Below are positions 48,764-59,408 of a stretch of DNA of 64,000 nucleotides, piece after piece. Source of the stretch: Escherichia phage vB-Eco-KMB43. Each line of letters begins with the position of its first letter. Position 1 is the stretch's first letter. The notes beneath the pieces were generated by a model. It was not told the origin of the DNA and did not search any database. It was given only the letters and a program-made list of their open reading frames with translations. The stretch lies in sequence record OR525698.1; one strand, written 5' to 3'. Both the position numbers and the translations under genes were made by a program.

Positions 48764-48842
48764 TTTAAACCTCCCATATAACAGAAAACGGGGCTAGTAT
48801 AAAACTAGTCCCCGTTTGAGTCAACCATTATTTCTTAAAAAA
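48764..48842 (-). promoter_or_regulatory. intergenic hairpin plus sigma70-like promoter (minus strand) between alt and the alt-like gene
   Basis: on minus strand TTGACT (plus 48809-48814), 17-bp spacer, TATACT (plus 48786-48791); imperfect palindrome AACGGGGCTAGT..ACTAGTCCCCGTT. Confidence 0.4.
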
Positions 48843-50894
48843 TTACATTTTAAATTTATCTGGCATTGCGTCTACAGATACCAGATCAGCGATAAGCTGA
48901 CGTAGAGTTGCCTTATCTGCTTTCTTACGTTCGGTTTTAGCTTCGCTAATGAAGCTGGAGAAAGACAGGTCAGAAGCAGGTTTAATAACACCTTCACGGA
49001 TGAATGCATCACCGTCTGCGATCATCTCGCCAGATTCTTGTAATGCTGCCAGTTCATTTTTGTTCATAATATGTGCCTCAATGTAATAAGTTTCTTGTGA
49101 ATCCGTCGATGCCGTAGCACGAGTTACCGTATCAAAGGATAACACAACACCGCGAGGAAGTAAAATCTCGCATTCTTTGTAAGCAAATGCTTTGTTACCT
49201 ACTGGCAACACAGGGATGTTTTCCGCGCCAGCAATGGAGAAAGCAACATTAGCGCCACCTTCACCGCGAGAGCCAGCCATAGAATCAACACCAGCAACGG
49301 CACTAGCCACGTTTGCATTCCAGCCGCCAAAAATGTTAGGTGCAAGGGAAGTGCTCACATAGTTTTTAAAGTAAAACGCTTTTTGCTTACGTGCAGTTTC
49401 CCACATTTGAGTCCGGAAGTCCATACCACGATACAGAATAGTACCCGGATCAAGTTTAACGCCATAGTTGGAGAAGGCATTATCCAGTGCATCGCACATC
49501 TTGACCAATTCTTCTGGATCTGCGATGCCTTCAAACTCTTCCAGCTTACGATCAGTTAGGAAGTTGTTCATATTGATGTATGCTGCATCGGCATATTCGC
49601 TCAATACAAAACCTTCCGCGCCCGGCAGATCAAGATCAATATCTGCCATCATTTCACCCATGTTGCTAGCAATTGCTTCAAACATACCGGAAGCAACATT
49701 ACGTAGGGCATCGGTTTTAATCTGGGTGATATGACTACGCAGCATTTCAGCTTTTACATCTGCTGGCATAGACTGGTCTACTCGATCCATTGCCAGGGCG
49801 GTGATCTTGTTTTCGAATACTTCCTCGCTCATGATTTCTTTTAAGCGTTTGATTGATGCTGCGATAACTTCCGCAGACAACGGATCATATTGATCCTGAA
49901 CTTTTACCAGTTCGCTTACTGCGTATTTTGCATCTGCTTCGCTTTCAAAAATAGTACGCATGAAACCATAGCGAGTGATAATATCACTTGTCCAGTCATT
50001 CAGAGAACGGGCGGTTGAACGTTCTAATGCTTGACGATCAATCAGAGTATTAAACTGTTTCTTAGGTTCGGCTTCGGTGATATCTTCTTCCGGTTTAAGA
50101 TTAATTTTTTCTGGATGATTCACATAGTCGCTGTTATAGGTCGCTTGAGTTTTCAGCATTTCTTCTTTAGTCAAACGAGATTTAGCCGCTACGCGTTGTT
50201 CTGCTTCCGCGTTTCGTTCTTCTTCTGACACAAGACTAGCCGCATACGCCTCATCTTTAGTCAGAGATTCACCAGTAGCCTTAGATACCCAGCGATCACC
50301 TAAATCACTTTCTACTTTAGTGAACAAGGATTCATCAAGTTTAATCCCTTTAATCTTATCAATCGCCATCCCGCGACGCTTGACAACAACTAAAGCGATC
50401 TTTTTGCTGGTCATTACTTCCTGCTGGAATACTTCAAACTTCGGTGTACGACGCACCAAACGCTCTATAACGCGCTTAACCAGTTCGGTCTTACCTTTCA
50501 TGCGGGATACGTTAAAACGGAACATAACAGCGTCTAATTGCGCTTTACGGGCTGTTTCCATAACCACATCAAAAGCACTTGCCATAACTGCAATCGGGTT
50601 ATCTCCTAGACCATTTTTAAGCTGTACAATACGACCGCTTTTGTTCATTTCGCACAGTACAACATGTGCGGTCTTGTCACCCATACGAATGATTTTAGGT
50701 GTTTTGTTGGTGAAGTTACAAAGACGGACAATCACATCTTTATCGCGTGTCTGTACTGCAAAAAGCTGTTTAGGATTCTGCTTAGGCTTTAAGCACTGTA
50801 CCGGAGCAATACTGCCAAAGTTTTCTTCCTCTTCCGTCAACAGCCATTTCTCGAAAGATTCAATCATTAGATCGTCGATTTCTAAGTTAAACAT
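48843..50894 (-). CDS. alt: Alt ADP-ribosyltransferase
   Basis: 683 aa (T4 Alt 682 aa); ART motifs ILYRGMDF, YVSTSLAP, KECEILLPRG near C-terminus. Confidence 0.7.
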   Translation of the reverse strand: MFNLEIDDLMIESFEKWLLTEEEENFGSIAPVQCLKPKQNPKQLFAVQTRDKDVIVRLCNFTNKTPKIIRMGDKTAHVVLCEMNKSGRIVQLKNGLGDNPIAVMASAFDVVMETARKAQLDAVMFRFNVSRMKGKTELVKRVIERLVRRTPKFEVFQQEVMTSKKIALVVVKRRGMAIDKIKGIKLDESLFTKVESDLGDRWVSKATGESLTKDEAYAASLVSEEERNAEAEQRVAAKSRLTKEEMLKTQATYNSDYVNHPEKINLKPEEDITEAEPKKQFNTLIDRQALERSTARSLNDWTSDIITRYGFMRTIFESEADAKYAVSELVKVQDQYDPLSAEVIAASIKRLKEIMSEEVFENKITALAMDRVDQSMPADVKAEMLRSHITQIKTDALRNVASGMFEAIASNMGEMMADIDLDLPGAEGFVLSEYADAAYINMNNFLTDRKLEEFEGIADPEELVKMCDALDNAFSNYGVKLDPGTILYRGMDFRTQMWETARKQKAFYFKNYVSTSLAPNIFGGWNANVASAVAGVDSMAGSRGEGGANVAFSIAGAENIPVLPVGNKAFAYKECEILLPRGVVLSFDTVTRATASTDSQETYYIEAHIMNKNELAALQESGEMIADGDAFIREGVIKPASDLSFSSFISEAKTERKKADKATLRQLIADLVSVDAMPDKFKM

Positions 50895-50940
50895 TTTATA
50901 TCCTCTAGTTGATAACCTATAAACCTATATTTATGAAAAA

Positions 50941-50955
50941 GGGGCTTAACGCCCC
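50941..50955 (-). terminator. hairpin terminator (minus strand)
   Basis: GGGGCTTAACGCCCC palindrome with T-run on the minus strand. Confidence 0.5.
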
Positions 50956-50961
50956 CATTTA

Positions 50962-51174
50962 TTATAATGCACCATCGAGCAATTGCTCTAAGGTGTATCC
51001 TGAATAGTCTTTTTCAATCAGGATATATTTTCCTACTCGTTTAATACAACCGCGCATTTCAACGTATTCTGCGTAGTTGATGGTGCGAGTTGTTCCATCT
51101 TCCAGTAATGCAGTACCGATTTCGTTAATGCGGTCATAAGTTACGTCGGTAATGATGATTTCGATGTTAGCCAT
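50962..51174 (-). CDS. hypothetical small protein (70 aa)
   Basis: ORF preceded by cassette copy 1 with AAGGAG SD. Confidence 0.45.
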   Translation of the reverse strand: MANIEIIITDVTYDRINEIGTALLEDGTTRTINYAEYVEMRGCIKRVGKYILIEKDYSGYTLEQLLDGAL

Positions 51175-51245
51175 TTGATACTCCTTAGTAGTTCGTTTCG
51201 GTATGGGTGTATTATGATATACACCCTCTGTTATGTCAACAACTT
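51175..51245 (-). promoter_or_regulatory. promoter/5'UTR cassette copy 1 (PeSL-like)
   Basis: minus-strand TTGACA (plus 51234-51239), 17-bp spacer, CATAAT, conserved UTR ...ACACCCATACCGAAACGA..AAGGAG. Confidence 0.6.
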
Positions 51246-51425
51246 TTAGAACATTTTTGAAATCAATTCTGCTTTGATTTCGCAGAGAACATCTAAAGAT
51301 TTCTCGTCACCTGCTTTTGCTGCTTCTGCTTGCATTTTTGAAATGGCTTCAATGTCGGTGCAATTATAAGCCGCTTGAACTTTAGCGATTGCGATGATTG
51401 CCGATTCGATGGTTAAGTGTTTCAT
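51246..51425 (-). CDS. hypothetical small protein (59 aa)
   Basis: ATG 51425 directly downstream of cassette copy 2; not in ORF track. Confidence 0.4.
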   Translation of the reverse strand: MKHLTIESAIIAIAKVQAAYNCTDIEAISKMQAEAAKAGDEKSLDVLCEIKAELISKMF

Positions 51426-51495
51426 GTTTGATTCCCCTTTCGTTTCGGTATGTGTGTATTATAGGGGATCACCGATCCCCCTGTCAACAACTTTT
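51426..51495 (-). promoter_or_regulatory. promoter/5'UTR cassette copy 2 (PeSL-like)
   Basis: TTGACA (plus 51482-51487), palindromic spacer GGGGGATCGGTGATCCCC, TATAAT, conserved UTR. Confidence 0.65.
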
Positions 51496-51498
51496 TAG

Positions 51499-52014
51499 TT
51501 ATTTTTTTAATTGCTCATCTTGCAATAGGGCAATCACATGCTGGCGATGTTCTTCCGATTGAGGCACACCGAAAAAGTTTGTTTTGTAGAAATACTCTAA
51601 TCGGTCTTCTCGTGTGCTCTCTTCCATCATGATCGCGGGTAGTCCGAGATTTCGGAAACGTCGCTTTTCTGCTGGCGTAAAATCACTGTAATACAACATA
51701 GAATCATCATTACCAGCAATGCTAAACTCATCCTTCATAAAGGAGAATATTGCGTTTAAACGCTGTTTACCGTCCACGATTTCGATCTCATAGCGAGAGC
51801 CATCATCAATCTTAGCCATTGCGATAGCACCGACCGGAAAATCATTAATCAGGTTTTCGATAAACATACGTTTGTTTTCGGTGTCCCATACCAAAGGACG
51901 CTGATAATCTGGGTTCATGTTGATATAGCCATCTTCTAACCATGCTTCGTAAACAGAGATGACAAAGTTTTTAGTATTGGTATAGTAACGGCGTTTAGGC
52001 GTTAAACGGTTCAT
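51499..52014 (-). CDS. DUF262 / ParB-like nuclease-domain protein
   Basis: motifs DYQRPLVW and VDGKQR; ATG 52014 with AGGAGA SD, 1 nt after the upstream stop; ORF-track alternative start 52050. Confidence 0.55.
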   Translation of the reverse strand: MNRLTPKRRYYTNTKNFVISVYEAWLEDGYINMNPDYQRPLVWDTENKRMFIENLINDFPVGAIAMAKIDDGSRYEIEIVDGKQRLNAIFSFMKDEFSIAGNDDSMLYYSDFTPAEKRRFRNLGLPAIMMEESTREDRLEYFYKTNFFGVPQSEEHRQHVIALLQDEQLKK

Positions 52015-52015
52015 G

Positions 52016-52348
52016 TTATAGTCTCCTGAATGGATCATCACGTAAATCAATATCTTTTAAGAACTCATCCCATGAATGGCGGATATTGTTCTTAATTCTC
52101 CAGATAAGCGCAGGGATTGAACGCTCTCCCATCTGGAAGTATGGATCATATGATCCGTATGCCCAATATGCTACTACAATTCCACAATCAGCGCAATAGT
52201 ATTCTATTTCACTTGCTGGCGACCAAAGTCCATCAATATGATCGGTGATCTTGCTTTCGATGTTATGGCTATGACAATCAGGGCAACGGATGCAATGACC
52301 TTGTTTATCGTAATTTGACGTTAGCGAATACTTAAACAATCTCATCAT
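52016..52348 (-). CDS. zinc-ribbon protein (two CxxC pairs)
   Basis: 110 aa; CIRCPDC ... CADCG; start overlaps upstream stop (ATGA). Confidence 0.45.
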   Translation of the reverse strand: MMRLFKYSLTSNYDKQGHCIRCPDCHSHNIESKITDHIDGLWSPASEIEYYCADCGIVVAYWAYGSYDPYFQMGERSIPALIWRIKNNIRHSWDEFLKDIDLRDDPFRRL

Positions 52349-53061
52349 AGATCCTTATTTGCTTCAAATACTGCCTTTGCGAATCCTCGCGGGGTAAGTG
52401 ACCTGATAGTCTTTGTTTTCGTTCCTTTCCCGCCTAGCTTAGAATGCTGTTTACTGTACCCTTTATTAATCTGCAAAGGTTTCTTTTCTGGCATTATAAA
52501 GCCTTGTCCGGTCCATAAGCAAGTCTTTTTCGGGTACATATCACGGGCGGCGATATACTCAGGAAAAGTAGGATGTTTATCATCTTCCGGCAAATAACCG
52601 CCATATTCCCACGGATGGAACATATAATCAGGCTTACGCCACATGCTAGAGATAACGCTTACAGGATTCTCTATCATGTAGGGAACTCCTAGCCATTCAC
52701 CCAAATAAGCGGTTATTTTAGCTGCCCGTACATCATGAACTTGAATCAATGGTCCTTGCTCTCGTTTCTTTCGTTCAAAGTGTGCAGCGCCACTAACAGC
52801 TAAATTGGTGCACGGTGGGAATGCAAAGATAATATCCGGTTTCCCCCATTCAAGGTCCATTGCTCTTTCCAGCCAGTTCAAATCAATCCAGGTGTTTACA
52901 TAGGTAATGTTTGGATGTTCAAATCTGGTATTATACTTTTTGTATGTACCGTGGTCGGCGTCATCCGCATTAAAGCAGACTACCTTATGACCTGCTTTAG
53001 CCCATTCTAGCCCCATTATCCCCGATCCGTCAAAGTTACAGAATATTAATTTTTGTTTCAT
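52345..53061 (-). CDS. C5-cytosine methyltransferase-fold protein (atypical PCT motif)
   Basis: 238 aa; motif I-like FCNFDGSGIMG, motif IV-like DIIFAFPPCTNLAVSGA, motif VI-like MIENP; no obvious target-recognition domain. Confidence 0.5.
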   Translation of the reverse strand: MKQKLIFCNFDGSGIMGLEWAKAGHKVVCFNADDADHGTYKKYNTRFEHPNITYVNTWIDLNWLERAMDLEWGKPDIIFAFPPCTNLAVSGAAHFERKKREQGPLIQVHDVRAAKITAYLGEWLGVPYMIENPVSVISSMWRKPDYMFHPWEYGGYLPEDDKHPTFPEYIAARDMYPKKTCLWTGQGFIMPEKKPLQINKGYSKQHSKLGGKGTKTKTIRSLTPRGFAKAVFEANKDL

Positions 53062-53303
53062 ATACGCCCCTTTAATCCAACACAGATTTTAGAAGGTTCT
53101 TTGCCGTGCCACATTAAGTAAAGTCCATTAATGCGGCCTTGTTTTGTATATGATTCTTTTCTGATCTTCTTATAGTGTCGTGCTTCCTCAGCCGATTGTT
53201 TAGAATACCAATCATAAAGGAAGAGGCACAAAGGCCAACCATTAGCGGCCTTAATGCAGTTATTAAGAAATTCCTTATTGCGTTTAATTAATTTTCTTTT
53301 CAC
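53058..53303 (-). CDS. hypothetical basic protein (81 aa)
   Basis: ORF with overlapping start/stop in the operon. Confidence 0.4.
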   Translation of the reverse strand: MKRKLIKRNKEFLNNCIKAANGWPLCLFLYDWYSKQSAEEARHYKKIRKESYTKQGRINGLYLMWHGKEPSKICVGLKGRI

Positions 53304-53551
53304 GCTGCCCCCATTGGTTTGATAGTAACAGAATCTAAAAGACCTTTGTTAGCCAGTTCGCGGCAAGTTTTCAGATCCGCAACTTCCCAGCCAGCCGCAA
53401 TCAGGTTATCGATGAGGCTGTTAGCAACTTCTTCGCTCATGAAAGAGCACTGTTTGCCGATGGTGTAGCGTACACGCTGTAATTTCAGTTTACGGAAGCC
53501 TTTAACGTTCAGGTCTTTAGCGATTTTCTTTGCGGTTTCGATGTTAGCCAT
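53300..53551 (-). CDS. hypothetical protein (83 aa), first gene of the operon
   Basis: ATG directly downstream of cassette copy 3 (AGGAGAATCAAACAATG). Confidence 0.45.
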   Translation of the reverse strand: MANIETAKKIAKDLNVKGFRKLKLQRVRYTIGKQCSFMSEEVANSLIDNLIAAGWEVADLKTCRELANKGLLDSVTIKPMGAA

Positions 53552-53628
53552 TGTTTGATTCTCCTAAGTGGTATCTAGTCTTGATGGTTGTATTGTAGGG
53601 GAGTTATCCTCCCCTGTCAACACTTTTT
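53552..53628 (-). promoter_or_regulatory. promoter/5'UTR cassette copy 3 (PeSL-like)
   Basis: TTGACA (plus 53615-53620), palindromic spacer GGGGAGGATAACTCCCC, TACAAT, conserved UTR. Confidence 0.6.
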
Positions 53629-53634
53629 ATAAAA

Positions 53635-53802
53635 TTATTTGTTAATTTCCGGTGCGTTGCTAGGATAGTAACCTTCTTTAACTCCGAGGTATTTCGCAAC
53701 CATCCCTACAATCTTCTGTGCTACTACAATGTCAAATTTCAGATAATCTTCGCCGTGGGTTTCAATGATATATGCTTCACATGCTGCTTTAGTCTCGAAC
53801 AT
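53635..53802 (-). CDS. hypothetical small protein (55 aa), paralogue of 57256-57423
   Basis: ATG after cassette copy 4; about 87% amino-acid identity to the second copy. Confidence 0.5.
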   Translation of the reverse strand: MFETKAACEAYIIETHGEDYLKFDIVVAQKIVGMVAKYLGVKEGYYPSNAPEINK

Positions 53803-53873
53803 TTTGATTCTCCTATTTCGTTTCGGTATGTGTGTATTATAGGGGATCTCCCGATCCCCGTCAACAACTTTTT
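53803..53873 (-). promoter_or_regulatory. promoter/5'UTR cassette copy 4 (PeSL-like)
   Basis: TTGACG (plus 53860-53865), palindromic spacer GGGATCGGGAGATCCCC, TATAAT. Confidence 0.6.
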
Positions 53874-53880
53874 TTTAAAA

Positions 53881-54162
53881 TTATTCGTGATTAGTTTCGA
53901 TGTTGTGCATTTTGCACCAGTTCAGCCAATCACCCAGATCCTGATAGTTAATGCTTTTATCTGCTGCCATCGTTTTTGTCTTGATACCCATATGTGCGTT
54001 ATGAGTAAGCATTTTTACAGTGAACTCAATTTTATCACCTTTAGCTTTAACATCAACCAGTTTGGTCCACTGGCTACCAGCGCCGCGAATGTTCATACCA
54101 ACGATGTTTCCGATGTATGCTTCTTTGTTTTTCAGGATTTCGGTTGCTTTGATGAATTTCAT
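53881..54162 (-). CDS. hypothetical protein (93 aa)
   Basis: ORF downstream of cassette copy 5. Confidence 0.45.
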   Translation of the reverse strand: MKFIKATEILKNKEAYIGNIVGMNIRGAGSQWTKLVDVKAKGDKIEFTVKMLTHNAHMGIKTKTMAADKSINYQDLGDWLNWCKMHNIETNHE

Positions 54163-54232
54163 TTTTGATTCTCCAGTTCGTTTCGGTATGTGTGTATTAT
54201 GCTATTTTCTTACTTTGGTGTCAACAACTTTT
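54163..54232 (-). promoter_or_regulatory. promoter/5'UTR cassette copy 5 (PeSL-like)
   Basis: TTGACA (plus 54219-54224), CATAAT, conserved UTR. Confidence 0.55.
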
Positions 54233-54233
54233 T

Positions 54234-54503
54234 TTAGATATTTTCAGAAATAAATTTTAAAACTTGACGTAAATGTTTCTCATCTTTGATAGTCGCCGGA
54301 AGTTCTTCTTTTACTTCCTGTGCAAGATAGATATTTCCGTTCCAAGTGAAAGATCCGTCTTCGTTTACGCGATAGCTGAACATCCACTCGCAATCATTTT
54401 CGATTTCATATACACACAGAAGAGTGTAATCTTCAAAGCTATTGATTTCAAGGTCGAAGCCGTGACGTTTTGCAAAGTTGGTAGTGGTTTTAGTCAGTGC
54501 CAT
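54234..54503 (-). CDS. hypothetical protein (89 aa)
   Basis: ORF downstream of cassette copy 6. Confidence 0.45.
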   Translation of the reverse strand: MALTKTTTNFAKRHGFDLEINSFEDYTLLCVYEIENDCEWMFSYRVNEDGSFTWNGNIYLAQEVKEELPATIKDEKHLRQVLKFISENI

Positions 54504-54580
54504 TGTTTGATTCTCCTAAGTGGTATCTCGTCTTGATGGGTGTATTATGCTATAGGCGTGATCTGGTGTCAATGCTTTTT
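54504..54580 (-). promoter_or_regulatory. promoter/5'UTR cassette copy 6 (PeSL-like)
   Basis: TTGACA (plus 54567-54572), 17-bp spacer, CATAAT. Confidence 0.55.
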
Positions 54581-54820
54581 TTAATTTTATGCAATAAAAA
54601 GACGACACTAAGGTCGGCACATTTTAAAAATTCTTGCCATATATGCAAGCCTCATAATCTAGAGGATGACCGCCAATCCTACCCGGCTTAATATTCCAAC
54701 CGCATCGATATTTGCTGACCATGCTAACAGTTTCGGTTCTTAGAGCATTTTCTTTGCAAATCATACCCCATAAATTCTTTTCTATAAGGACAGTCCGCTT
54801 TGCAAGTTGGCGGTTCTACG

Positions 54821-55012
54821 TCATTTAGCGGGTCGGAAGCAGTTGGCTTTATTATCAATTCTTTGTTTGCAATAATCATAAGCACATCCCATTGAAGACA
54901 ATTTAACATCTTCGCAATAAGTGTTGAATCCGTCAAACACGGTCACTTCGTATTTGACTCCATCAGCGATAGCTTTTACTTTATACCATCCATGCTTGTA
55001 TAAAATCTTCAT
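54821..55012 (-). CDS. hypothetical Cys-rich protein (63 aa)
   Basis: ATG directly downstream of cassette copy 7; overlapped out of frame by ORF 54724-54936. Confidence 0.4.
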   Translation of the reverse strand: MKILYKHGWYKVKAIADGVKYEVTVFDGFNTYCEDVKLSSMGCAYDYCKQRIDNKANCFRPAK

Positions 55013-55082
55013 CTTTATTTCCTCAATCTCGTTTCGATGGGTGTATTATGCTATAGGCTAGACCAGGTTGTCAACAACTTTT
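55013..55082 (-). promoter_or_regulatory. promoter/5'UTR cassette copy 7 (PeSL-like)
   Basis: TTGACA (plus 55069-55074), CATAAT, conserved UTR. Confidence 0.55.
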
Positions 55083-55103
55083 TTAATTTTTTGGAAATAA
55101 AAA

Positions 55104-55124
55104 AGCCGACGCTAAGGTCGGCTA
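55104..55124 (-). terminator. rho-independent terminator (minus strand)
   Basis: AGCCGACGCTAAGGTCGGCT hairpin with TTTTTT on the minus strand; degenerate copy at 54597-54620. Confidence 0.6.
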
Positions 55125-55130
55125 ATAAAA

Positions 55131-55439
55131 TCATTTAGACAAATAATCATTCTGTGCAATCCGGTCGGCGTATGCTGGTGTTACGTCAATCGCCAACACT
55201 TTAACGCGTGCTTTCTTGCGACCTGGGTTTTCTCGTAACCAGTGCTCATGACCGTGCACATTTTTATATTTTGATGCGGTTTCGAAGGTACGGATCGGAC
55301 CTGGATAATCTGCGTAAAGGATCTCTAGGTCTTCGGTGATGTAAAAATATACATCATAATTACTGTTCTCTAGTTTAAGCAGAGAATTGCGAAATTGTGG
55401 TAAATTCTCGCGGGTAAATTCAACTACAAGATTTTTCAT
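55131..55439 (-). CDS. small protein, paralogue family A (HxHW ... AxDV.P..AD), member 1
   Basis: ATG 55439 with GAGGA SD; HEHW and VLAIDVTPAYAD motifs. Confidence 0.5.
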   Translation of the reverse strand: MKNLVVEFTRENLPQFRNSLLKLENSNYDVYFYITEDLEILYADYPGPIRTFETASKYKNVHGHEHWLRENPGRKKARVKVLAIDVTPAYADRIAQNDYLSK

Positions 55440-55468
55440 AGTGATATCCTCATTCAGATAGATTAAAA

Positions 55469-55483
55469 GGGGCTTAACGCCCC
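55469..55483 (-). terminator. hairpin terminator (minus strand)
   Basis: GGGGCTTAACGCCCC palindrome, identical to 50941-50955. Confidence 0.5.
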
Positions 55484-55488
55484 GTATA

Positions 55489-55776
55489 TTAAAACAGTCC
55501 TTCCTGTACACCGTAGTAGAGTTCGTCACTGATAATTTCATTAATGCGACGGTGTGCATATTCCTGATTTGCGAAGTTGTCAGCAAGTTCTACTTTAGTT
55601 TCGCCGTCATGAGTCCATTTAGTGATAACTTTACCATCTGCAAATTTGAAGTTGAACTCTTTAGCTACTGCATCGCGTACCAGACGTGCGAACTTGTTGT
55701 TACGGATTGCATTATCGGTTTCGTGTGCAGCGTGAGCAAATTTGTTAACTTTCAGAGTGATAGTAATGTATGCCAT
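55489..55776 (-). CDS. small protein, paralogue family B, member 1
   Basis: 95 aa; LVRDAVAKEFNFK shared with 58658-58969 (LIREVRKALAKEFNTK). Confidence 0.5.
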   Translation of the reverse strand: MAYITITLKVNKFAHAAHETDNAIRNNKFARLVRDAVAKEFNFKFADGKVITKWTHDGETKVELADNFANQEYAHRRINEIISDELYYGVQEGLF

Positions 55777-55859
55777 AATTTGATTCTCCTAGTTAGAAAG
55801 TGTATCTCGTTTCGATGGGTGTATTATGCTATACACCCGATCCATTGTCAACGCCTTTT
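55777..55859 (-). promoter_or_regulatory. promoter/5'UTR cassette copy 8 (PeSL-like)
   Basis: TTGACA (plus 55846-55851) overlapping the stop codon of the upstream ORF; CATAAT. Confidence 0.55.
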
Positions 55860-56183
55860 TATAAAATAATTTTCGATATCTTTATGATGTTTTTCTCGTG
55901 CTTGGTCTGCCTCGGCTGGCGATACGTTGGAAGCGATAATCTTCACTACTGTTGCACCTTTTTCGGTGTCCGACACCCAATGATTATGGAAACCGCTATT
56001 ATTAAACACTTGATAAGAAAATGATTTAATGCTAGGGAAATTATATGTGTAATAGCGTACCTTTAATTCTGAATCTATGTATAGATAGATCACCGCACCT
56101 AGATAGACCGTCTCACTCGTTCCATCAACTAACAGTAGAGTATTTCGCAATTCTTCTAAATTGTCTTTTGTAAGAAAAATCAT
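55848..56183 (-). CDS. small protein, paralogue family A, member 2
   Basis: 111 aa; LYIDSELKVRYY, HNHW, IIASNVSPAEAD. Confidence 0.5.
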   Translation of the reverse strand: MIFLTKDNLEELRNTLLLVDGTSETVYLGAVIYLYIDSELKVRYYTYNFPSIKSFSYQVFNNSGFHNHWVSDTEKGATVVKIIASNVSPAEADQAREKHHKDIENYFIKRR

Positions 56184-56197
56184 AGTATAATCCTCAA

Positions 56198-56533
56198 TTA
56201 AACCAAATTAACTTTGGTGTTGTGGTGTTTTTCTCGTGCTTCGTCCGCTTCTTCCGGTGTCACGTTACGAGCGACTACAATAACACTTGCTGCCTCTCCG
56301 TGATGAGAGATCTCTACCCAATGGTTATGATTTGTGAATCCGTGTTTTATTGCGTAAGCGAACGGCTTGGACGTCCAGTAGTTACTATAATATCGTACAT
56401 TTAGATCGCTATCAATGTACAAATATGTGCTGTCGTTTACATTGCCACTAACAACAAAAACAAGACAATTGCGAAGATCTGGCAATATTTTGTCTGTCAA
56501 TTTTATAATGTGACTGTTCATAATTAACACCAC
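56198..56533 (-). CDS. small protein, paralogue family A, member 3
   Basis: 111 aa; LYIDSDLNVRYY, HNHW, VVARNVTPEEAD. Confidence 0.5.
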   Translation of the reverse strand: MVLIMNSHIIKLTDKILPDLRNCLVFVVSGNVNDSTYLYIDSDLNVRYYSNYWTSKPFAYAIKHGFTNHNHWVEISHHGEAASVIVVARNVTPEEADEAREKHHNTKVNLV

Positions 56534-56733
56534 TCAAGAGTTTTTGAAAACACATCTATCCATTGTTGAGTATATGCAGTTTCTTTCCACGAGACAATAC
56601 CAGTAGAATAATGATTCTTGTTTCCAGAAAAGGACGGGCATTTTGATGCATCTTCCATCATCTTTTCGGCGAACTCTGGTTCGTATACTCGCAAGATCTG
56701 TTGATATGCTTTGTAGTCTTTAAATTTGCTCAT
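56524..56733 (-). CDS. hypothetical small protein (69 aa)
   Basis: ORF between family A members. Confidence 0.4.
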   Translation of the reverse strand: MSKFKDYKAYQQILRVYEPEFAEKMMEDASKCPSFSGNKNHYSTGIVSWKETAYTQQWIDVFSKTLEWC

Positions 56734-56998
56734 AATCGTTAACTACCTTATCAGCTTCTTTTATTGTTTTTACATCAACTGCGATAACCCGTAAAGGTTC
56801 GTCGTGGTTCCACCAATGATCGTGAATATCAGCTTGTGATTTATCACCAAAGGAATCACGAATATCATTTTTACATTTATAGCTAATGTGACCGTCATAG
56901 TCAACATAAAGGTAATTATCGAAAATCGGCGTTTTTAAGATCATGCCGAAAAATCTTTCTTTGTGTGTCTTATCCAGTGTTGCAGTAATTCGCATCAT
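56720..56998 (-). CDS. small protein, paralogue family A, member 4
   Basis: 92 aa; HDHW, VIAVDVKTIKEAD; AGAGGAA SD. Confidence 0.5.
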   Translation of the reverse strand: MMRITATLDKTHKERFFGMILKTPIFDNYLYVDYDGHISYKCKNDIRDSFGDKSQADIHDHWWNHDEPLRVIAVDVKTIKEADKVVNDYEQI

Positions 56999-57010
56999 AA
57001 TATATTCCTC

Positions 57011-57190
57011 TTAGAAAGGGATGGTCATTTCTTGAGCTTGTACATTCTCGTTAGGATTAAACTTCATCCAACCGATATTGTCTACCAGCATATGCACATT
57101 TTTATCATATCCTACGTGAGTAGTCAATACTAAATGTGCTTTACCTTCAACGATGATTTCCATGTACTTCTGAACTTCGATAGCTTTCAT
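57011..57190 (-). CDS. hypothetical small protein (59 aa)
   Basis: ATG directly downstream of cassette copy 9; not in ORF track. Confidence 0.4.
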   Translation of the reverse strand: MKAIEVQKYMEIIVEGKAHLVLTTHVGYDKNVHMLVDNIGWMKFNPNENVQAQEMTIPF

Positions 57191-57191
57191 T

Positions 57192-57255
57192 TTTGATTCT
57201 CCGTTTGTTGTCTTGATGGGAGTATATTACTACTCCCTTTAATCATTGTCAACTA
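57192..57255 (-). promoter_or_regulatory. promoter/5'UTR cassette copy 9 (PeSL-like)
   Basis: TTGACA (plus 57247-57252), 17-bp spacer, TAATAT; palindrome GGGAGTA..TACTCCC. Confidence 0.5.
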
Positions 57256-57423
57256 TTATTTGTTAATTTCCGGTGCGTTGCTCGGATAGTAACCTTCTTT
57301 AACACCCAGATATTTTGCGACCATTCCGGTGATCTTCTGTGCTACTACAATGTCAAATTTCAGGTAGTCTTCACCGTGGTTTGCTACAATGTATGCTTCG
57401 CATTCTGCTTTAGTCTGGAACAT
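57256..57423 (-). CDS. hypothetical small protein (55 aa), paralogue of 53635-53802
   Basis: near-identical nucleotide and protein sequence to the first copy; ATG after cassette copy 10. Confidence 0.5.
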   Translation of the reverse strand: MFQTKAECEAYIVANHGEDYLKFDIVVAQKITGMVAKYLGVKEGYYPSNAPEINK

Positions 57424-57493
57424 TTTTGATTCTCCTATATCTCGTTGGTATGTGTGTAGTATAGGGGATCACCGATCCCCTGTCAACAACTTT
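57424..57493 (-). promoter_or_regulatory. promoter/5'UTR cassette copy 10 (PeSL-like)
   Basis: TTGACA (plus 57481-57486), palindromic spacer GGGGATCGGTGATCCCC, TATACT. Confidence 0.6.
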
Positions 57494-57802
57494 TTATTCT
57501 TCATCTTCATCTTTATCTTGATATGCGTACGTCATAAATTTGTCTGCTACTTTGTCCGCGTTTTCAGGTTCTACGTCTGACGCTAGGACAACAGCTAGTT
57601 CTGTTTTGTCGTTTCCATCATACCAATGATTATGAGTGTCGTTTTCTTCGATATAAAACGAATCATTTGGAGTTGTGCGACAATATACGTCTAAATTCCC
57701 ATCGATATAAAAGATCCAATCCGAATACAAAATGATTGTTTTAGCAAGATTTTTATTGCCTTCAACGAAAGGTTCGGCTACAAACAAATTAGTATGTTCC
57801 AT
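57494..57802 (-). CDS. small protein, paralogue family A, member 5
   Basis: ATG 57802 with GAGGA SD; HNHW, LAVVLASDVEPENAD. Confidence 0.5.
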   Translation of the reverse strand: MEHTNLFVAEPFVEGNKNLAKTIILYSDWIFYIDGNLDVYCRTTPNDSFYIEENDTHNHWYDGNDKTELAVVLASDVEPENADKVADKFMTYAYQDKDEDEE

Positions 57803-57819
57803 AGTATTTTTCCTCAAAA

Positions 57820-58011
57820 TTATACAGCTTCGTAAACTTCCCAATGTCCAACACCAGCACGCTTAACGAAAAGGTTTTCTTTTATGTTATTCATAAACGT
57901 CTGGATGGATTTAATTCGTTTGGAAGGTTTCCAGTCTTCGTTGGTATTGCGTCGATACATCATAACATTACCAGACCGCTTATATTCAGCAACCATTTTA
58001 AGACCACACAT
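57820..58011 (-). CDS. hypothetical small protein (63 aa)
   Basis: ATG 58011 with GAGGA SD downstream of cassette copy 11. Confidence 0.4.
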   Translation of the reverse strand: MCGLKMVAEYKRSGNVMMYRRNTNEDWKPSKRIKSIQTFMNNIKENLFVKRAGVGHWEVYEAV

Positions 58012-58090
58012 AATATTATCCTCAATTTGTGGGAGAGTATTACCCTCCCGATTATTGTTATACTACATTACGCAAAATGGCGTGTCAATG
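58012..58090 (-). promoter_or_regulatory. promoter cassette copy 11 (divergent variant)
   Basis: TTGACA (plus 58083-58088, inside the 3' end of the upstream ORF), TAGTAT; palindrome GGGAG..CTCCC. Confidence 0.4.
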
Positions 58091-58388
58091 CTTCTTTTGC
58101 TGTTCCGCTAAGATTCTCTATCTCTCCTGGCATAACATCAACCGCCAGAACTTCTACAACATCCTCTGATCCTAACCAGTGAGTATGACCTTTGTAGAAC
58201 TTGATAATCAGACTACCTTCCTCATCCCATTTAACGCTATCGCTAGCCCACCACACATCACCGTCGATAAAGTTGATGTAAAGCACACTACGCCACATTG
58301 AATTAATTACTTTCAATACTGCGCCTTTCATATCTTCCACGGTGTGGTCTTCCATTTTGAAGACCTCGCCTACCTGAACTTTTGCCAT
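58068..58388 (-). CDS. small protein, paralogue family A, member 6
   Basis: 106 aa; HTHW, VLAVDVMPGEIEN. Confidence 0.5.
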   Translation of the reverse strand: MAKVQVGEVFKMEDHTVEDMKGAVLKVINSMWRSVLYINFIDGDVWWASDSVKWDEEGSLIIKFYKGHTHWLGSEDVVEVLAVDVMPGEIENLSGTAKEALTRHFA

Positions 58389-58405
58389 TTAGTCACCTCT
58401 CTTTA

Positions 58406-58585
58406 TTACATAACAATTACGCCAGCCGTTGAAAGTTGATGTTTCAACTGAGCATTTTCTGCTACTGTCAAATCAATGATTTCTTGTGACGCTGCAATCA
58501 TATAGCCATTGGTGATATTGTTTTGCATCAGTTCAATGGTTTCTTCGTTGTAGCGGATTTTAGCGATGATTTCGTTGAAGTTCAT
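58406..58585 (-). CDS. hypothetical small protein (59 aa)
   Basis: ATG 58585 directly downstream of cassette copy 12; not in ORF track. Confidence 0.4.
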   Translation of the reverse strand: MNFNEIIAKIRYNEETIELMQNNITNGYMIAASQEIIDLTVAENAQLKHQLSTAGVIVM

Positions 58586-58657
58586 AATTGATTCTCCTAG
58601 TTCGTTTCGGTATGTGTGTATTATAGGGGAGTTTAACCTCCCCTGTCAACAACTTTT
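58586..58657 (-). promoter_or_regulatory. promoter/5'UTR cassette copy 12 (PeSL-like)
   Basis: TTGACA (plus 58645-58650), palindromic spacer GGGGAGGTTAAACTCCCC, TATAAT. Confidence 0.6.
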
Positions 58658-58969
58658 TTAAAGTTTTTCCATGATAACGGTCATAATTACATCTTCTGCG
58701 CGAGCGGTCAGATTATCAGCGTCAGCATGTGGGCGGTTGGTTGTTACAGAGATAACACCGTTGCGCACTGGTTTGATATTGATATCAAGATGATCCGCGA
58801 AACGTTCGCCAGTTACAGAATGAATTTTGGTGTTAAATTCTTTTGCCAGTGCCTTGCGAACTTCACGAATCAGGATAGCGTTTTTCAGTTGGTTCTCCGC
58901 GCTCATGGTCTTCTGAGTGTTCATGGTTCCGTCGAAGTCAATCATTGGCAGCGTTACGATGTATTTCAT
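58658..58969 (-). CDS. small protein, paralogue family B, member 2
   Basis: 103 aa; LIREVRKALAKEFNTK. Confidence 0.5.
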   Translation of the reverse strand: MKYIVTLPMIDFDGTMNTQKTMSAENQLKNAILIREVRKALAKEFNTKIHSVTGERFADHLDINIKPVRNGVISVTTNRPHADADNLTARAEDVIMTVIMEKL

Positions 58970-59056
58970 TTTTGATTCTCCGTTTAAGAAAGTGTGTTTC
59001 GTTTTGATGTGTGTAGTATAGGGGATACGTGATCCCCTGTCAACAACTTTTTTGAA
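58970..59056 (-). promoter_or_regulatory. promoter/5'UTR cassette copy 13 (PeSL-like)
   Basis: TTGACA (plus 59038-59043), palindromic spacer GGGGATCACGTATCCCC, TATACT. Confidence 0.6.
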
Positions 59057-59401
59057 TTATTTTTTCATGAGCTTAATGGCTTCTTCCATAGCCAGCACAT
59101 TTCGATAGTTAGGGTATCGTGTTAGATCGTCATACATTCGCTTAAGGGTGGAAACTTCCTCAAACTCTGGGTTTTCTAGATACAGTTGAACAAATTGTTT
59201 CTCTACCATCTCGGCTTTTAGCTTGTCTGCTTGTTCCTGTTCATATGATTTCGTTGGACCCAACACCAACAAAATGATAAAGGTGATCAACGGGCTAATG
59301 ATCAATGATAGGATAACATAACCAATAACGCTACGGTTTAAACGGCTTGCGTACATGCCTACAAGGAAAACAAAAAGGATATAGATAAACAGAAAGAACA
59401 T
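59057..59401 (-). CDS. small inner-membrane protein (two predicted TM helices)
   Basis: 114 aa; N-terminal hydrophobic segments MFFLFIYILFVFLVGMYA and VIGYVILSLIISPLITFIILLVLG. Confidence 0.5.
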   Translation of the reverse strand: MFFLFIYILFVFLVGMYASRLNRSVIGYVILSLIISPLITFIILLVLGPTKSYEQEQADKLKAEMVEKQFVQLYLENPEFEEVSTLKRMYDDLTRYPNYRNVLAMEEAIKLMKK

Positions 59402-59408
59402 ATAATGG

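What the first reader, a model, noticed from the sequence alone, without database searches (positions are those of the whole stretch)
51175..59056. Thirteen copies of a conserved promoter/5'UTR cassette punctuate an ~8 kb array of small minus-strand genes
Between alt and DNA ligase, nearly every small ORF is preceded by a 65-85 bp cassette. On the minus strand each reads TTGACA, a 17-18 bp spacer, (T/C)A(T/C)AAT, then ACAC(A/C)CATACCGAAACGA...GGAGAATCAAA and the ATG. In most copies the spacer is a palindrome whose two arms change together while staying complementary (GGGGATCGGTGATCCCC, GGGGAGGATAACTCCCC, GGGGAGGTTAAACTCCCC, GGGGATCACGTATCCCC, GGGAGTA..TACTCCC), which argues for selection on a hairpin. 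Homology extends into the first codons (MAN.., MK.I.., MF.TK..), so the cassette carries the translation start with it. In copy 8 the stop codon of the upstream gene lies inside the -35 hexamer. This resembles the promoter-early stem-loop (PeSL) cassettes reported for T4-type hyperplastic regions, here in an unusually dense array that would allow gene shuffling by recombination between copies.
Basis: partly seen in the sequence, partly recalled or inferred. Interest (0 to 1): 0.8.

Follow-up and report, generated by a model that had tools for sequence, protein, structure and literature searches.

The report
Known PeSL promoter cassettes, RB49-type phage
The repeated cassettes are real, but they are the already published "PeSL" promoter/stem-loop elements of RB49-like coliphages, sitting in the same alt-to-ligase variable region where they were first described and tested, so this is a correct rediscovery and not a new finding.

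Summary
There are 13 near-consensus sigma-70 promoter cassettes on the minus strand between 51172 and 59055. Twelve are homologous and one, at 58088, is divergent. A profile built from the 12 finds exactly those 12 sites in the 64-kb window.

The window is a Krischvirus (RB49-like phage). The region corresponds to RB49 ORFs 185-211, the region Arbiol et al. 2010 call HPR3, where they defined PeSLs. The first cassette, C1, is identical in sequence to RB49 PeSL211/210, whose stem-loop terminated transcription in a reporter. C4 differs by 2 nt from PeSL206/205, a strong promoter in their assay.

The array is not unusually dense. The same profile finds 12 copies in RB49 and 13 in phage SAP. Only 13 of about 27 ORFs carry a cassette.

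Comparison with 11 relatives gives 12 distinct indel events. Six have both ends in cassettes, which supports shuffling between copies.

The formal covariation test is weak. However, orthologous hairpin spacers are 4-6 times more divergent than the leaders, and all 16 variants still pair.

One point not in the PeSL papers is untested. The Shine-Dalgarno (SD) box GGAGAATCAAA matches the T4 RegB/S1 cleavage consensus at 10 of 11 positions.

Verdict: already known, low interest.

The parts
58967..59055 (-). Cassette C1: A-rich tract, TTGACA, spacer hairpin GGGGAT-cacgt-ATCCCC (59021-59037), TATACT, 39-nt leader, GGAGAATCAAA, ATG of a 103-aa ORF
   Evidence: Identical in sequence to RB49 PeSL211/210, whose stem-loop was tested as a terminator.
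58583..58661 (-). Cassette C2: TTGACA, hairpin GGGGAG-gttaaa-CTCCCC (58626-58643), TATAAT, leader ACACACATACCGAAACGAACTA, GGAGAATCAAT, ATG of a 59-aa ORF
   Evidence: -15 kcal/mol, z -2.9; 12/12 match.
58009..58100 (-). Cassette C3 (divergent): TTGACA-17-TAGTAT, with stem-loop GGGAGGGT-aat-ACTCTCCC (58031-58049) downstream of the -10 and so inside the leader; GAGG-type ribosome-binding site (RBS); ATG of a 63-aa ORF
   Evidence: 10/12. The nhmmer profile does not detect it.
57421..57498 (-). Cassette C4: TTGACA, hairpin GGGGATC-ggt-GATCCCC (57464-57480), TATACT, GGAGAATCAAA, ATG of a 55-aa ORF (paralog of the ORF at C10)
   Evidence: Differs by 2 nt from RB49 PeSL206/205, which gave about 13,000 Miller units.
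57188..57264 (-). Cassette C5: TTGACA-17-TAATAT, with hairpin GGGAGTA-gtaata-TACTCCC (57218-57237) overlapping the -10; GGAGAATCAAA; ATG of a 59-aa ORF
   Evidence: (z -3.9).
55774..55863 (-). Cassette C6: TTGACA (containing the TGA stop of the upstream ORF), hairpin GGGTGTAT-agcata-ATACACCC (55817-55838) overlapping the CATAAT -10, 40-nt leader, GGAGAATCAAA, ATG of a 95-aa ORF (same PHROG as the ORF at C1)
   Evidence: Orthologs in RB49, SAP and SFHK24 carry GGGGATAT/ATATCCCC, a change on both sides of two base pairs.
55010..55086 (-). Cassette C7: TTGACA-18-CATAAT, no internal hairpin, GAGGAAAT RBS, ATG of a 63-aa ORF
55104..55123 (-). Intrinsic terminator AGCCGACCTTAGCGTCGGCT followed by a T-run, immediately upstream of C7. 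It takes the place of the missing internal stem-loop.
54501..54584 (-). Cassette C8: TTGACA-17-CATAAT, no internal hairpin, leader ...GATACCACTTA, GGAGAATCAAA, ATG of an 89-aa ORF
54596..54618 (-). Degenerate copy of the same terminator (GCCGACCTTAGTGTCGTC followed by a T-run) upstream of C8. Terminator plus cassette form the roughly 97-nt repeat at which the 407-bp segment is deleted in five relatives.
54160..54236 (-). Cassette C9: TTGACA-17-CATAAT, no hairpin anywhere, leader ACACACATACCGAAACGAACT, GGAGAATCAAA, ATG of a 93-aa ORF
53800..53876 (-). Cassette C10: TTGACG, hairpin GGGGATC-ggga-GATCCCC (53842-53859), TATAAT, GGAGAATCAAA, ATG of a 55-aa ORF. Its upstream edge is an insertion hot spot.
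   Evidence: Inserts of three different lengths sit here: 545 bp in RB49, 367 bp in JSE, and 529 bp in G2494 and MIZ6.
53549..53632 (-). Cassette C11: TTGACA, hairpin GGGGAG-gataa-CTCCCC (53598-53614), TACAAT, GGAGAATCAAA, ATG of an 83-aa ORF
   Evidence: (-19.4 kcal/mol, z -4.5).
51423..51499 (-). Cassette C12: TTGACA, hairpin GGGGGATC-ggt-GATCCCC (51464-51480), TATAAT, GGGGAATCAAA, ATG of a 59-aa ORF
   Evidence: 12/12. Tandemly duplicated in SAP. Together with C13 it bounds the deletion seen in PHB13, Cognac and JK32.
51172..51251 (-). Cassette C13: TTGACA-17-CATAAT, with hairpin GGGTGTAT-atcata-ATACACCC (51205-51226) overlapping the -10; GGAGTATCAAA; ATG of a 70-aa ORF
   Evidence: (z -3.4).

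Best explanation
The region is the PeSL (promoter-early stem-loop) array of the alt-to-ligase hyperplastic region of an RB49-like Krischvirus. Each cassette is a compact early-expression module with four parts:
- An A-rich tract and a near-consensus sigma-70 promoter. Host RNA polymerase would read it immediately after infection. This is inferred here and was shown by reporter assay for the RB49 ortholog.
- A G(n)-loop-C(n) stem-loop. It usually lies between -35 and -10 or across the -10, upstream of the cassette's own predicted start. It is therefore transcribed only in read-through RNA from the gene above, which it attenuates or terminates. That insulates each unit. This was shown by reporter assay for a stem-loop with the same sequence as C1.
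- A short, unstructured, G-poor leader of 26-40 nt.
- A strong GGAG Shine-Dalgarno box and the ATG.

The roughly 75-90 nt of shared sequence recurs every 0.25-2 kb in direct orientation. The phage's efficient homologous recombination can therefore cross over between copies. This deletes, duplicates or inserts the ORFs in between and swaps promoter/hairpin halves between cassettes. Comparison with relatives shows this here. The published work showed it as mini-circles.
For: Identity of the region:
- The region matches 63 Krischvirus-type records at about 94-98% identity.
- It aligns with RB49 ORFs 185-211 between alt and gene 30.
- Arbiol et al. 2010 defined PeSLs there and tested PeSL193/192, 206/205 and 211/210.
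- C1 is identical to RB49 PeSL211/210, and C4 differs from PeSL206/205 by 2 nt.

Promoter and repeat quality:
- Eleven cassettes score 11-12/12 and two score 10/12.
- The profile hits exactly 12 sites in 64 kb, all on the same strand.

Stem-loops:
- Ten of 13 copies have stem-loops of 7-8 predicted base pairs, with predicted energies for the folded promoter segments of -11 to -19.5 kcal/mol. Two of the remaining three have a canonical terminator just upstream.
- The window holds 25 GC-rich perfect hairpins against 6.3 +/- 2.4 in shuffles.

Constraint on pairing:
- Among orthologous cassettes in 12 genomes the spacer differs by about 0.12 per nt. The leader differs by 0.03 and the CDS by 0.02 (my means of the table without its mixed MANI group).
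- All 16 distinct GGG-type spacers nonetheless keep at least 6 pairs.
- Two base pairs are changed on both sides in the class that overlaps the -10.

Recombination:
- Of 12 distinct indel events against 11 relatives, 6 have both ends in cassettes and 2 more have one end at a cassette edge.
- Chimeric cassettes occur in Cognac, PHB13, JK32, UPWr_E1 and MIZ6. Their crossovers lie between the -10 and the ATG, the zone where the published mini-circle junctions were mapped.

Leaders: predicted to be unstructured, at -0.3 to -2.6 kcal/mol.
Against: - No transcription data exist for this phage. Start sites, termination at the stem-loops and early timing are all inferred from sequence and from RB49 reporter assays.
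- The stem-loops are followed by TATAAT-like sequence rather than a true U-tract. Efficient intrinsic termination is therefore not obvious from sequence. Only one stem-loop was tested in the paper.
- One cassette (C9) has no stem-loop or terminator at all.
- The formal covariation test is not significant for the spacer class (81/500 shuffles). For the -10-overlap class it rests on what is probably a single event.
- Four of the 12 indel events have neither end at a cassette edge (53060/53287, 55892/56519, 58386/58391, and 57817/58009, which ends at the ATG of C3). Against a null of 'any gene junction' the enrichment is modest, with p about 0.04 by my binomial estimate.
Confidence: 0.9

Rival explanations
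1. The GGGG...CCCC palindromes act at the DNA level. They would be an operator or a recombination target for a phage or host protein, or a cruciform that initiates exchange, rather than an RNA terminator. A dimer bound between -35 and -10 would also shut the promoter off.
For: - The palindrome sits inside the promoter, where a bound protein would block RNA polymerase.
- The arms are strongly conserved as G4/C4.
- The 3-nt loop is found as GGT or as its reverse complement ACC at five orthologous sites. The palindrome has therefore been flipped as DNA.
- The authors of the PeSL paper themselves speculate about a specific DNA-binding protein.
- The stem-loops lack a U-tract.
Against: - The position of the stem-loop relative to the hexamers varies: in the spacer, across the -10, downstream, or upstream.
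- The arm sequences differ (GATC, GAG, GTGTAT, GAGTA), which fits a structure better than a sequence-specific site.
- Cassettes without a stem-loop have a classical terminator just upstream instead.
- Mismatches are of the G-T type on the sense strand, which are G-U pairs in RNA.
- A stem-loop identical to that of C1 terminated transcription in a reporter.
- No recombinase has been identified.
Confidence: 0.15
2. There is no dedicated 'mobile cassette' function. These are ordinary early promoters that were copied along with small genes by tandem duplication and kept similar by gene conversion. Indels at the cassettes would then be a passive by-product of any repeated sequence in a recombination-proficient phage.
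For: - Two cassette-plus-gene pairs are plain duplications: the 55-aa ORFs at C4 and C10 share 89% amino-acid identity, and the ORFs at C1 and C6 belong to the same PHROG.
- Indels also occur at non-cassette microhomologies of 16-17 nt.
- A six-member paralog family in the same region expanded without cassettes.
- T4-type recombination needs less than 50 bp of homology.
Against: This reading disputes only what was selected for, not the mechanism.
- Unrelated ORFs share cassettes, so cassettes are not merely co-duplicated with genes. An example is C11/C13, with identity through ATGGCTAACATCGAAA.
- Inserts of three different lengths occupy the same cassette edge in different phages.
Confidence: 0.3
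3. The stem-loops serve mainly as 3'-end stabilisers of the upstream mRNA, protecting it from 3' exonucleases after processing, rather than as terminators.
For: - Each stem-loop lies a few nucleotides after the stop codon of the upstream ORF.
- The stems are GC-rich but lack a U-tract.
Against: - The reporter assay showed a reduction in downstream expression comparable to rrnB T1.
- This role is not exclusive of attenuation.
Confidence: 0.1

Closest known systems
PeSL (promoter-early stem-loop) cassettes of coliphages RB49 and phi1 (Arbiol, Comeau, Kutateladze, Adamia and Krisch 2010, Genome Biol Evol 2:140; PMC2839356)
   Same: - Same genus and same alt-to-ligase hyperplastic region, called HPR3 in that paper.
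- Same architecture: AT-rich tract, TTGACA-N17-TATAAT, G(n)-loop-C(n) stem-loop in several positions, then SD and ATG.
- C1 is identical to PeSL211/210 and C4 is within 2 nt of PeSL206/205.
- Indels lie at the cassettes. Like phi1, the window lacks RB49 ORF192.
   Different: Nothing essential differs. This genome is a new mosaic of known segments: the best single relative, FL37, covers 88%. With 11 relatives instead of one pair, the hairpin/promoter half can be seen to be exchanged at orthologous sites.
PeSLs of T4/PST and KVP40/nt-1 (Comeau, Arbiol and Krisch 2014; PMC4122927)
   Same: Composite promoter/terminator motifs in hyperplastic regions, next to indels.
   Different: Those have other promoter consensus sequences (TTTACW...TAYWAT and TTGYVH...TAWWAT) and AT-richer stems, usually placed upstream of the promoter. 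They are analogs, not homologs, of the cassettes here. The present sequence family is confined to 58 Krischvirus-type records.
Integron gene cassettes, and the 'linker' sequences of Botstein's modular theory
   Same: Short conserved elements flank promoterless or self-expressed ORFs and act as the points of exchange. Circular intermediates have been reported.
   Different: No integrase or attC-type site-specific recombination is involved. Exchange is by general homologous recombination, and each cassette brings its own promoter.
T4 RegB/S1 endoribonuclease target sites (consensus GGAGRAYARAA, optimum GGAGAAUAAAA; Durand et al. 2006, PMC1702504)
   Same: The cassette box GGAGAAUCAAA matches at 10 of 11 positions. 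It is an SD of early genes in a predicted single-stranded leader.
   Different: Position 8 is C, where T4 sites strongly prefer A. The RB49 RegB is divergent. Cleavage at these sites has not been tested, so this is a resemblance only.

Membership tests
PeSL (RB49/phi1 type) | Near-consensus sigma-70 promoter, TTGACA-N17(18)-TATAAT | tested here: met
   Eleven cassettes score 11-12/12 and two score 10/12, with spacers of 17-18 nt, all on the minus strand.
PeSL (RB49/phi1 type) | AT-rich tract upstream of -35 that typically holds the stop codon of the upstream gene | tested here: met
   AAAAAGTTG-type tracts precede 12 of 13 copies. The upstream stop codon lies 0-25 nt upstream of the -35, or inside it at C6.
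PeSL (RB49/phi1 type) | Stable G(n)-loop-C(n) stem-loop in one of five positions relative to the promoter | tested here: met
   Six lie in the spacer, 3 overlap the -10, 1 lies downstream of the -10, and 2 cassettes have a terminator upstream of the -35. One cassette (C9) has none.
PeSL (RB49/phi1 type) | Shine-Dalgarno sequence and start codon at the 3' end | tested here: met
   GGAGAATCAA is exact in 9 copies and within 1 mismatch in 2 more, 4-6 nt before the ATG.
PeSL (RB49/phi1 type) | Intergenic position in a hyperplastic region, upstream of ORFs of unknown function | tested here: met
   The region lies between alt and gene 30. All ten cassette ORFs tested fall in PHROGs of unknown function, and five tested against Pfam had no hit.
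PeSL (RB49/phi1 type) | Sequence homology to the published RB49 PeSLs | tested here: met
   C1 is identical to RB49 PeSL211/210 and C4 differs from PeSL206/205 by 2 nt. The profile finds 12 copies in the RB49 interval.
PeSL (RB49/phi1 type) | Association with insertions, deletions and replacements between related phages | tested here: met
   Six of 12 distinct events have both ends in cassettes and 2 more have one end at a cassette edge. Chimeric cassettes sit at the junctions.
PeSL (RB49/phi1 type) | Promoter and terminator activity in vivo; formation of mini-circles | not testable with these tools
   Published for RB49 orthologs only: about 13,000 Miller units for PeSL206/205, termination comparable to rrnB T1 for the PeSL211/210 stem-loop, and inverse-PCR circles for ORF192 and ORF210.
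RegB/S1 cleavage site (T4 type) | GGA(G/U) followed by an A-rich 7-nt tract (GGAGRAYARAA) in single-stranded RNA | tested here: inconclusive
   Eight cassettes match at 10 of 11 positions, with C in place of the conserved A at position 8. The leaders are predicted to be unstructured. regB is not in this window. RB49 is reported to have a divergent regB. Cleavage has not been tested.

The most novel reading that the evidence does not exclude
The invariant 3' box GGAGAAUCAAA may be a RegB/S1 endoribonuclease site as well as a Shine-Dalgarno sequence. Each PeSL would then be a complete early module that switches on through the sigma-70 promoter, is insulated by the stem-loop, and is switched off by RegB cutting within the SD a few minutes into infection. 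Internal genes of the same operons use a different RBS of the GAGGA-type, which lacks GGAG, so they would escape the cut. The PeSL papers do not mention RegB.
Probability: 0.3. Interest if true: 0.4.

Novelty: already known. Interest (0 to 1): 0.15.

Why it matters
The finding does not open a new question. PeSLs, their promoter and terminator activities and their role in modular shuffling were published in 2010 for this phage group and this very region. At least one public record, GEC-3S, already annotates them as promoters.

The practical value is in annotation. Thirteen early transcription units and their insulators can be marked in this genome.

The comparison with 11 relatives adds some quantitative support to the published model:
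- Half of the indel events run from one cassette to another.
- The promoter/hairpin half is exchanged at orthologous sites, while the leader and gene stay linked.
- The hairpin sequence changes fast but always stays paired.

The resemblance of the SD box to a RegB site is a cheap hypothesis that someone working on Krischvirus gene expression could test.

Tried and rejected
- My first regex scan and a strict degenerate pattern each missed several copies. An explicit list anchored on the ATGs and an nhmmer profile replaced them.
- The pattern CATMSAAACGA is not significantly enriched in the whole window. The leader box is too variable for a single short pattern.
- The formal covariation count on the spacer class was not significant (81/500 shuffles reach the score). 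This is partly because MAFFT misregisters copies with an extra G or C. For the -10-overlap class it is nominally significant (2/500) but rests on three orthologous sequences. I therefore do not use covariation as the main argument.
- The Rfam scan of 50000-60500 at E up to 1 found only two chance-level hits, to a Plasmodium RUF1 and to snoU54. No described RNA family is present.
- Pfam found nothing for eight of ten ORFs tested. The exceptions are a GmrSD_N domain and a weak Zn-ribbon match.
- A tblastn search with T4 RegB found no regB in the window. Its presence in this phage rests on the literature for RB49.
- The claim of an 'unusually dense array' is rejected. RB49 has 12 copies, SAP 13 and most relatives 9-12 in the same interval.
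- The idea of a hairpin-bearing 5'UTR is rejected. Only C3 has its stem-loop downstream of the predicted start.

Full report
**1. What is in the sequence**

I read the minus strand of 50800-59400 and anchored on the start codons. This gives 13 promoter-like cassettes. The positions below give the first T of TTGAC and the A of the ATG.

| Cassette | TTGAC / ATG |
|---|---|
| C1 | 59043 / 58969 |
| C2 | 58649 / 58585 |
| C3 | 58088 / 58011 |
| C4 | 57486 / 57423 |
| C5 | 57252 / 57190 |
| C6 | 55851 / 55776 |
| C7 | 55074 / 55012 |
| C8 | 54572 / 54503 |
| C9 | 54224 / 54162 |
| C10 | 53864 / 53802 |
| C11 | 53620 / 53551 |
| C12 | 51487 / 51425 |
| C13 | 51239 / 51174 |

- The consensus scan ranks 11 of them as the best sigma-70 matches in the region, at 11-12 of 12 hexamer positions with spacers of 17-18 nt. 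C3 and C5 score 10/12. All are on the minus strand.
- GGAGAATCAA occurs nine times exactly, only here and only on this strand. With one mismatch there are 19 matches against 5.3 +/- 2.5 in shuffles.
- An nhmmer profile built from 12 copies finds exactly those 12 sites in the whole 64-kb window, with E from 1e-11 to 2e-17. C3 is a divergent promoter with its own stem-loop and is not detected by the profile.
The TGA stop of ORF 55848-56183 occupies 55850-55848, inside the TTGACA at 55851-55846.

**2. Hairpins**

I folded the promoter portion of each copy. Ten copies have a stem-loop of 7-8 predicted base pairs. The folded segments have predicted energies of -11 to -19.5 kcal/mol.

| Position of the stem-loop | Cassettes | Sequence |
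|---|---|---|
| Strictly between -35 and -10 | C1, C2, C4, C10, C11, C12 | GGGGAT(C)-loop-(G)ATCCCC or GGGGAG-loop-CTCCCC |
| Overlapping the -10 | C5; C6 and C13 | GGGAGTA/TACTCCC; GGGTGTAT/ATACACCC |
| Downstream of the -10 | C3 | GGGAGGGT/ACTCTCCC |
| None inside the cassette | C7, C8, C9 | see below |

- C7 and C8 are each preceded by a classical or degenerate intrinsic terminator: GCCGACCTTAGCGTCGGC plus a T-run at 55104-55123, and a degenerate copy near 54596-54618. C9 has nothing.
- So 'most copies have a spacer palindrome' really means 6 of 13. It becomes 9 of 13 if the -10-overlap class is included.
- With a predicted start 7 nt after the -10, the stem-loop lies upstream of the cassette's own transcript in 9 of the 10 copies that have one.
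- The predicted leaders are 26-42 nt long. Except for C3, whose leader contains its stem-loop, they are essentially unstructured at -0.3 to -2.6 kcal/mol.

**3. Where the window comes from**

- Megablast of 51000-59400 hits 63 phage records, all RB49-like (Krischvirus). Identity is about 94-98%, but no single record covers more than 88%.
- The RB49 annotation shows the interval is ORFs 185-211, between the Alt-like ADP-ribosyltransferase and an HNH endonuclease next to gene 30 DNA ligase. FL37, JSE, PHB13, SAP and Cognac have the same frame.
- A single cassette used as a query finds 58 records, all of this phage group, with 6-10 places each. The GEC-3S record already annotates the site as promoter, -35 and -10.

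**4. What is already published**

Arbiol et al. 2010 (PMC2839356) describe PeSLs in RB49 and phi1. The points that matter here are:
- They found about 51 PeSLs per genome, mostly in hyperplastic regions.
- A PeSL consists of an AT-rich tract, a sigma-70-identical promoter, a stem-loop that often has polyG/polyC arms, and an SD plus ATG. Five subclasses are defined by the position of the stem-loop.
- They report promoter activity of about 13,000 Miller units for PeSL206/205.
- They report terminator activity comparable to rrnB T1 for the stem-loop of PeSL211/210.
- They count eight PeSLs in about 5 kb around ORF192 in 'HPR3'.
- Mini-circles carrying ORF192 and ORF210 had crossovers mapped between the -10 and the SD or ATG.

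My table of orthologs shows that C1 is identical in sequence to RB49 PeSL211/210. C4 differs from PeSL206/205 by two bases at the -10 (TATACTA against TATAATG). Like phi1, the window lacks ORF192. The finding is therefore the same set of elements, not merely something similar.

Comeau et al. 2014 (PMC4122927) extend the concept to T4/PST and KVP40/nt-1, which have different consensus sequences.

**5. Is the array unusually dense?**

No. The same profile finds 12 copies in the RB49 interval, 13 in SAP, 9-12 in eight other relatives and 5 in Cognac, which has a large deletion. Thirteen copies in 7.9 kb is the density the paper gives (8 in about 5 kb). Only 13 of about 27 ORFs carry a cassette. 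The others sit in short operons behind a second conserved RBS type, GAGGA(t/a)(a/t)ATA(t/c)TATG.

**6. Gain and loss at cassette boundaries**

I chained blastn alignments of 50000-60500 against 11 relatives. This gives 12 distinct structural events.

Six events have both ends in cassettes, or an insertion point in one:
- 51215/51439 removes the 59-aa ORF, with 24 nt shared at the junction (PHB13, Cognac, JK32).
- C12 is tandemly duplicated in SAP.
- 53639/53803 removes the 55-aa ORF, with 87 nt shared (UPWr_E1, JK32).
- Insertions occur at 53872-53885, the upstream edge of C10. They come in three different lengths: 545 bp in RB49, 367 bp in JSE, and 529 bp in G2494 and MIZ6.
- 54618/55026 removes 407 bp, with about 97 nt of terminator plus cassette shared (FL37, JSE, PHB13, G2494, SFHK24).
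- 53871/57255 in Cognac lies between the paralogous C10 and C4 units.

Two events have one end at a cassette edge: 59064/59422 and 58675/59422.

Four events have neither end at a cassette edge:
- 53060/53287.
- The 55892/56519 replacement, inside a paralog block.
- A 261-bp insertion at 58386-58391.
- 57817/58009, which runs from the g5/g6 junction to the ATG of C3.

Cassettes plus or minus 15 nt cover about 18% of the region. Both ends falling in cassettes in 6 of 12 events is therefore far above a positional null. Against the harder null that indels fall at any gene junction (13 of 27 have a cassette), my binomial estimate is p of about 0.04. The junction cassettes in the deleted genomes are chimeras. 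One partner supplies the hairpin and -10, and the other supplies the leader, SD and ORF. This matches the published crossover zone.

**7. Covariation and constraint on the hairpin**

The formal count is weak.
- For the -10-overlap register, I aligned 29 distinct sequences, including orthologs that lack the stem. Two pairs change on both sides: GGGTGTAT/ATACACCC in the window against GGGGATAT/ATATCCCC in RB49, SAP and SFHK24. The covariation score is 0.054 against 0.021, reached by 2 of 500 shuffles. This is probably one event.
- For the spacer class the score is not significant (81/500). This is partly because copies with an extra G or C are misaligned.

The ortholog table is more informative. 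Upstream of one and the same gene, different phages carry different perfect palindromes. Before the MNFNEII ORF, for example, these are GGGGAG-gttaaa-CTCCCC, GGGGATC-acc-GATCCCC, GGGGATC-ggt-GATCCCC and GGGGATC-gcc-GATCCCC.

I measured divergence between orthologous cassettes. These are my means of the table after leaving out its mixed MANI group.

| Segment | Differences per nt |
|---|---|
| Spacer | about 0.12 |
| Upstream 30 nt | about 0.13 |
| Leader | about 0.03 |
| First 90 nt of the CDS | about 0.02 |

All 16 distinct GGG-type spacers still form at least 6 pairs. The arms do change together, but mainly because whole promoter/hairpin modules are exchanged between cassettes. Variation within a module is concentrated in the loop. 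This supports a constraint on pairing. It does not prove stepwise compensatory evolution.

**8. Homology into the coding region**

C11 and C13 share ATGGCTAACATCGAAA, although their proteins are otherwise unrelated by BLASTP. Two cassette-plus-gene pairs are true paralogs. The 55-aa ORFs at C4 and C10 are 89% identical, and the ORFs at C1 and C6 are both in phrog_7474. For the remaining pairs, identity at +4 to +18 is 0.40. It is 0.27-0.35 further downstream and 0.33 in non-cassette genes. That is a small effect, compatible with a preference for A-rich second codons. The claim that the cassette carries the translation start with it is only partly right.

**9. Mechanism**

The best-supported reading is the published one. 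Each cassette is an early sigma-70 promoter. Its embedded or adjacent stem-loop attenuates read-through from the unit above. A short open leader and a strong SD follow. The direct repeats serve as substrates for homologous recombination that reshuffles the ORFs.

- Shown here: the anatomy, the homology to the tested elements, the cassette-to-cassette indels and the chimeric cassettes.
- Shown elsewhere, for orthologs: promoter strength, terminator activity and mini-circles.
- Inferred: start sites, early timing, and termination at every copy.

The rivals are:
- A DNA-level protein target or cruciform. The GGT/ACC loop flip favours this, and the authors speculated about it. The variable position and sequence of the stems argue against it.
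- Passive duplication and gene conversion with no selected 'mobility' role.
- Stabilisation of the upstream mRNA's 3' end.

None of these excludes the main reading.

**10. A point not in the PeSL papers**

The cassette box GGAGAATCAAA matches the T4 RegB/S1 target at 10 of 11 positions. The consensus is GGAGRAYARAA and the optimum is GGAGAAUAAAA. Eight cassettes carry it exactly, in leaders predicted to be single-stranded. The internal genes use a GAGG-type RBS without GGAG. RB49 is reported to encode a divergent RegB whose own SD is cut in vivo. The 2010 PeSL paper contains no mention of RegB.

Caveats:
- Position 8 is C, where T4 sites strongly prefer A.
- regB is not in this window. I confirmed that the query was the genuine T4 RegB sequence.
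- Nothing has been tested.

I rate this at about 0.3.

**11. Other checks**

Rfam finds no described RNA family in the region. All ten cassette ORFs tested fall in PHROGs of unknown function. The only Pfam domain of note nearby is GmrSD_N in ORF 51499-52014.

**12. Verdict**

The element is already known in this genus and at this locus. The claim of unusual density is wrong. Interest is low (0.15).

Noticed in passing
window 58068-58388, 57494-57802, 56720-56998, 56198-56521, 55848-56183, 55131-55439 (all minus strand): Six paralogous ORFs of about 100 aa with invariant Y...HxHW...A..V residues. BLASTP links three of them. None carries a cassette. All use a second conserved RBS, GAGGA(t/a)(a/t)ATA(t/c)TATG. 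The one large replacement that is not at a cassette (55892/56519) lies inside this block.
   Followed up: partly
window 57464-57480 and 51464-51480, with orthologous sites in L001-L011: The 3-nt loop of GGGGATC-NNN-GATCCCC is GGT or its exact reverse complement ACC at five orthologous sites across 12 genomes. The only near-intermediates are GCC, ACA and ATC. The palindrome has apparently been flipped as DNA, for example by template switching or a cruciform, and the flipped form then spread between cassettes.
   Followed up: partly
window 50940-50956 and 55469-55483 (minus strand): The same intrinsic terminator, GGGGCGTTAAGCCCC plus a T-run, occurs twice. Each copy follows a cassette-headed ORF and precedes a gene without a cassette.
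   Followed up: no
window 51499-53061 (minus strand): A block without cassettes. It holds a 171-aa protein with only the GmrSD_N (DUF262) domain at E 4e-20, a 110-aa protein with a weak Zn-ribbon match, and a 238-aa protein annotated in RB49 as a DNA methyltransferase but with no Pfam hit here. It could be an anti-restriction or modification module.
   Followed up: no
window 48790-48830 (minus strand), downstream of alt: Another PeSL-like element of a different sequence family: TTGACT-17-TATACT, with a stem of about 12 bp (ACGGGGACTAGT...ACTAGCCCCGT) across the -10, followed by TTTT. It is conserved in 9 of the loci.
   Followed up: no
L007 (G2494) about 2498-2570 and L005 (SAP) about 8506-8577: Cassettes left without a gene. 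In G2494 the ATG of the MKHL ORF reads ATA. SAP has a tandem second copy of C12 followed by no ORF. These are examples of decaying or orphan PeSLs.
   Followed up: no
window 59057-59401 (minus strand): A 114-aa ORF with a hydrophobic N-terminal half, the RB49 ORF211 ortholog. It starts 7 nt after the HNH endonuclease gene and has no cassette. It is absent from SAP, MIZ6, SFHK24, UPWr_E1 and JK32, and those deletions end at the upstream edge of C1 or C2.
   Followed up: partly
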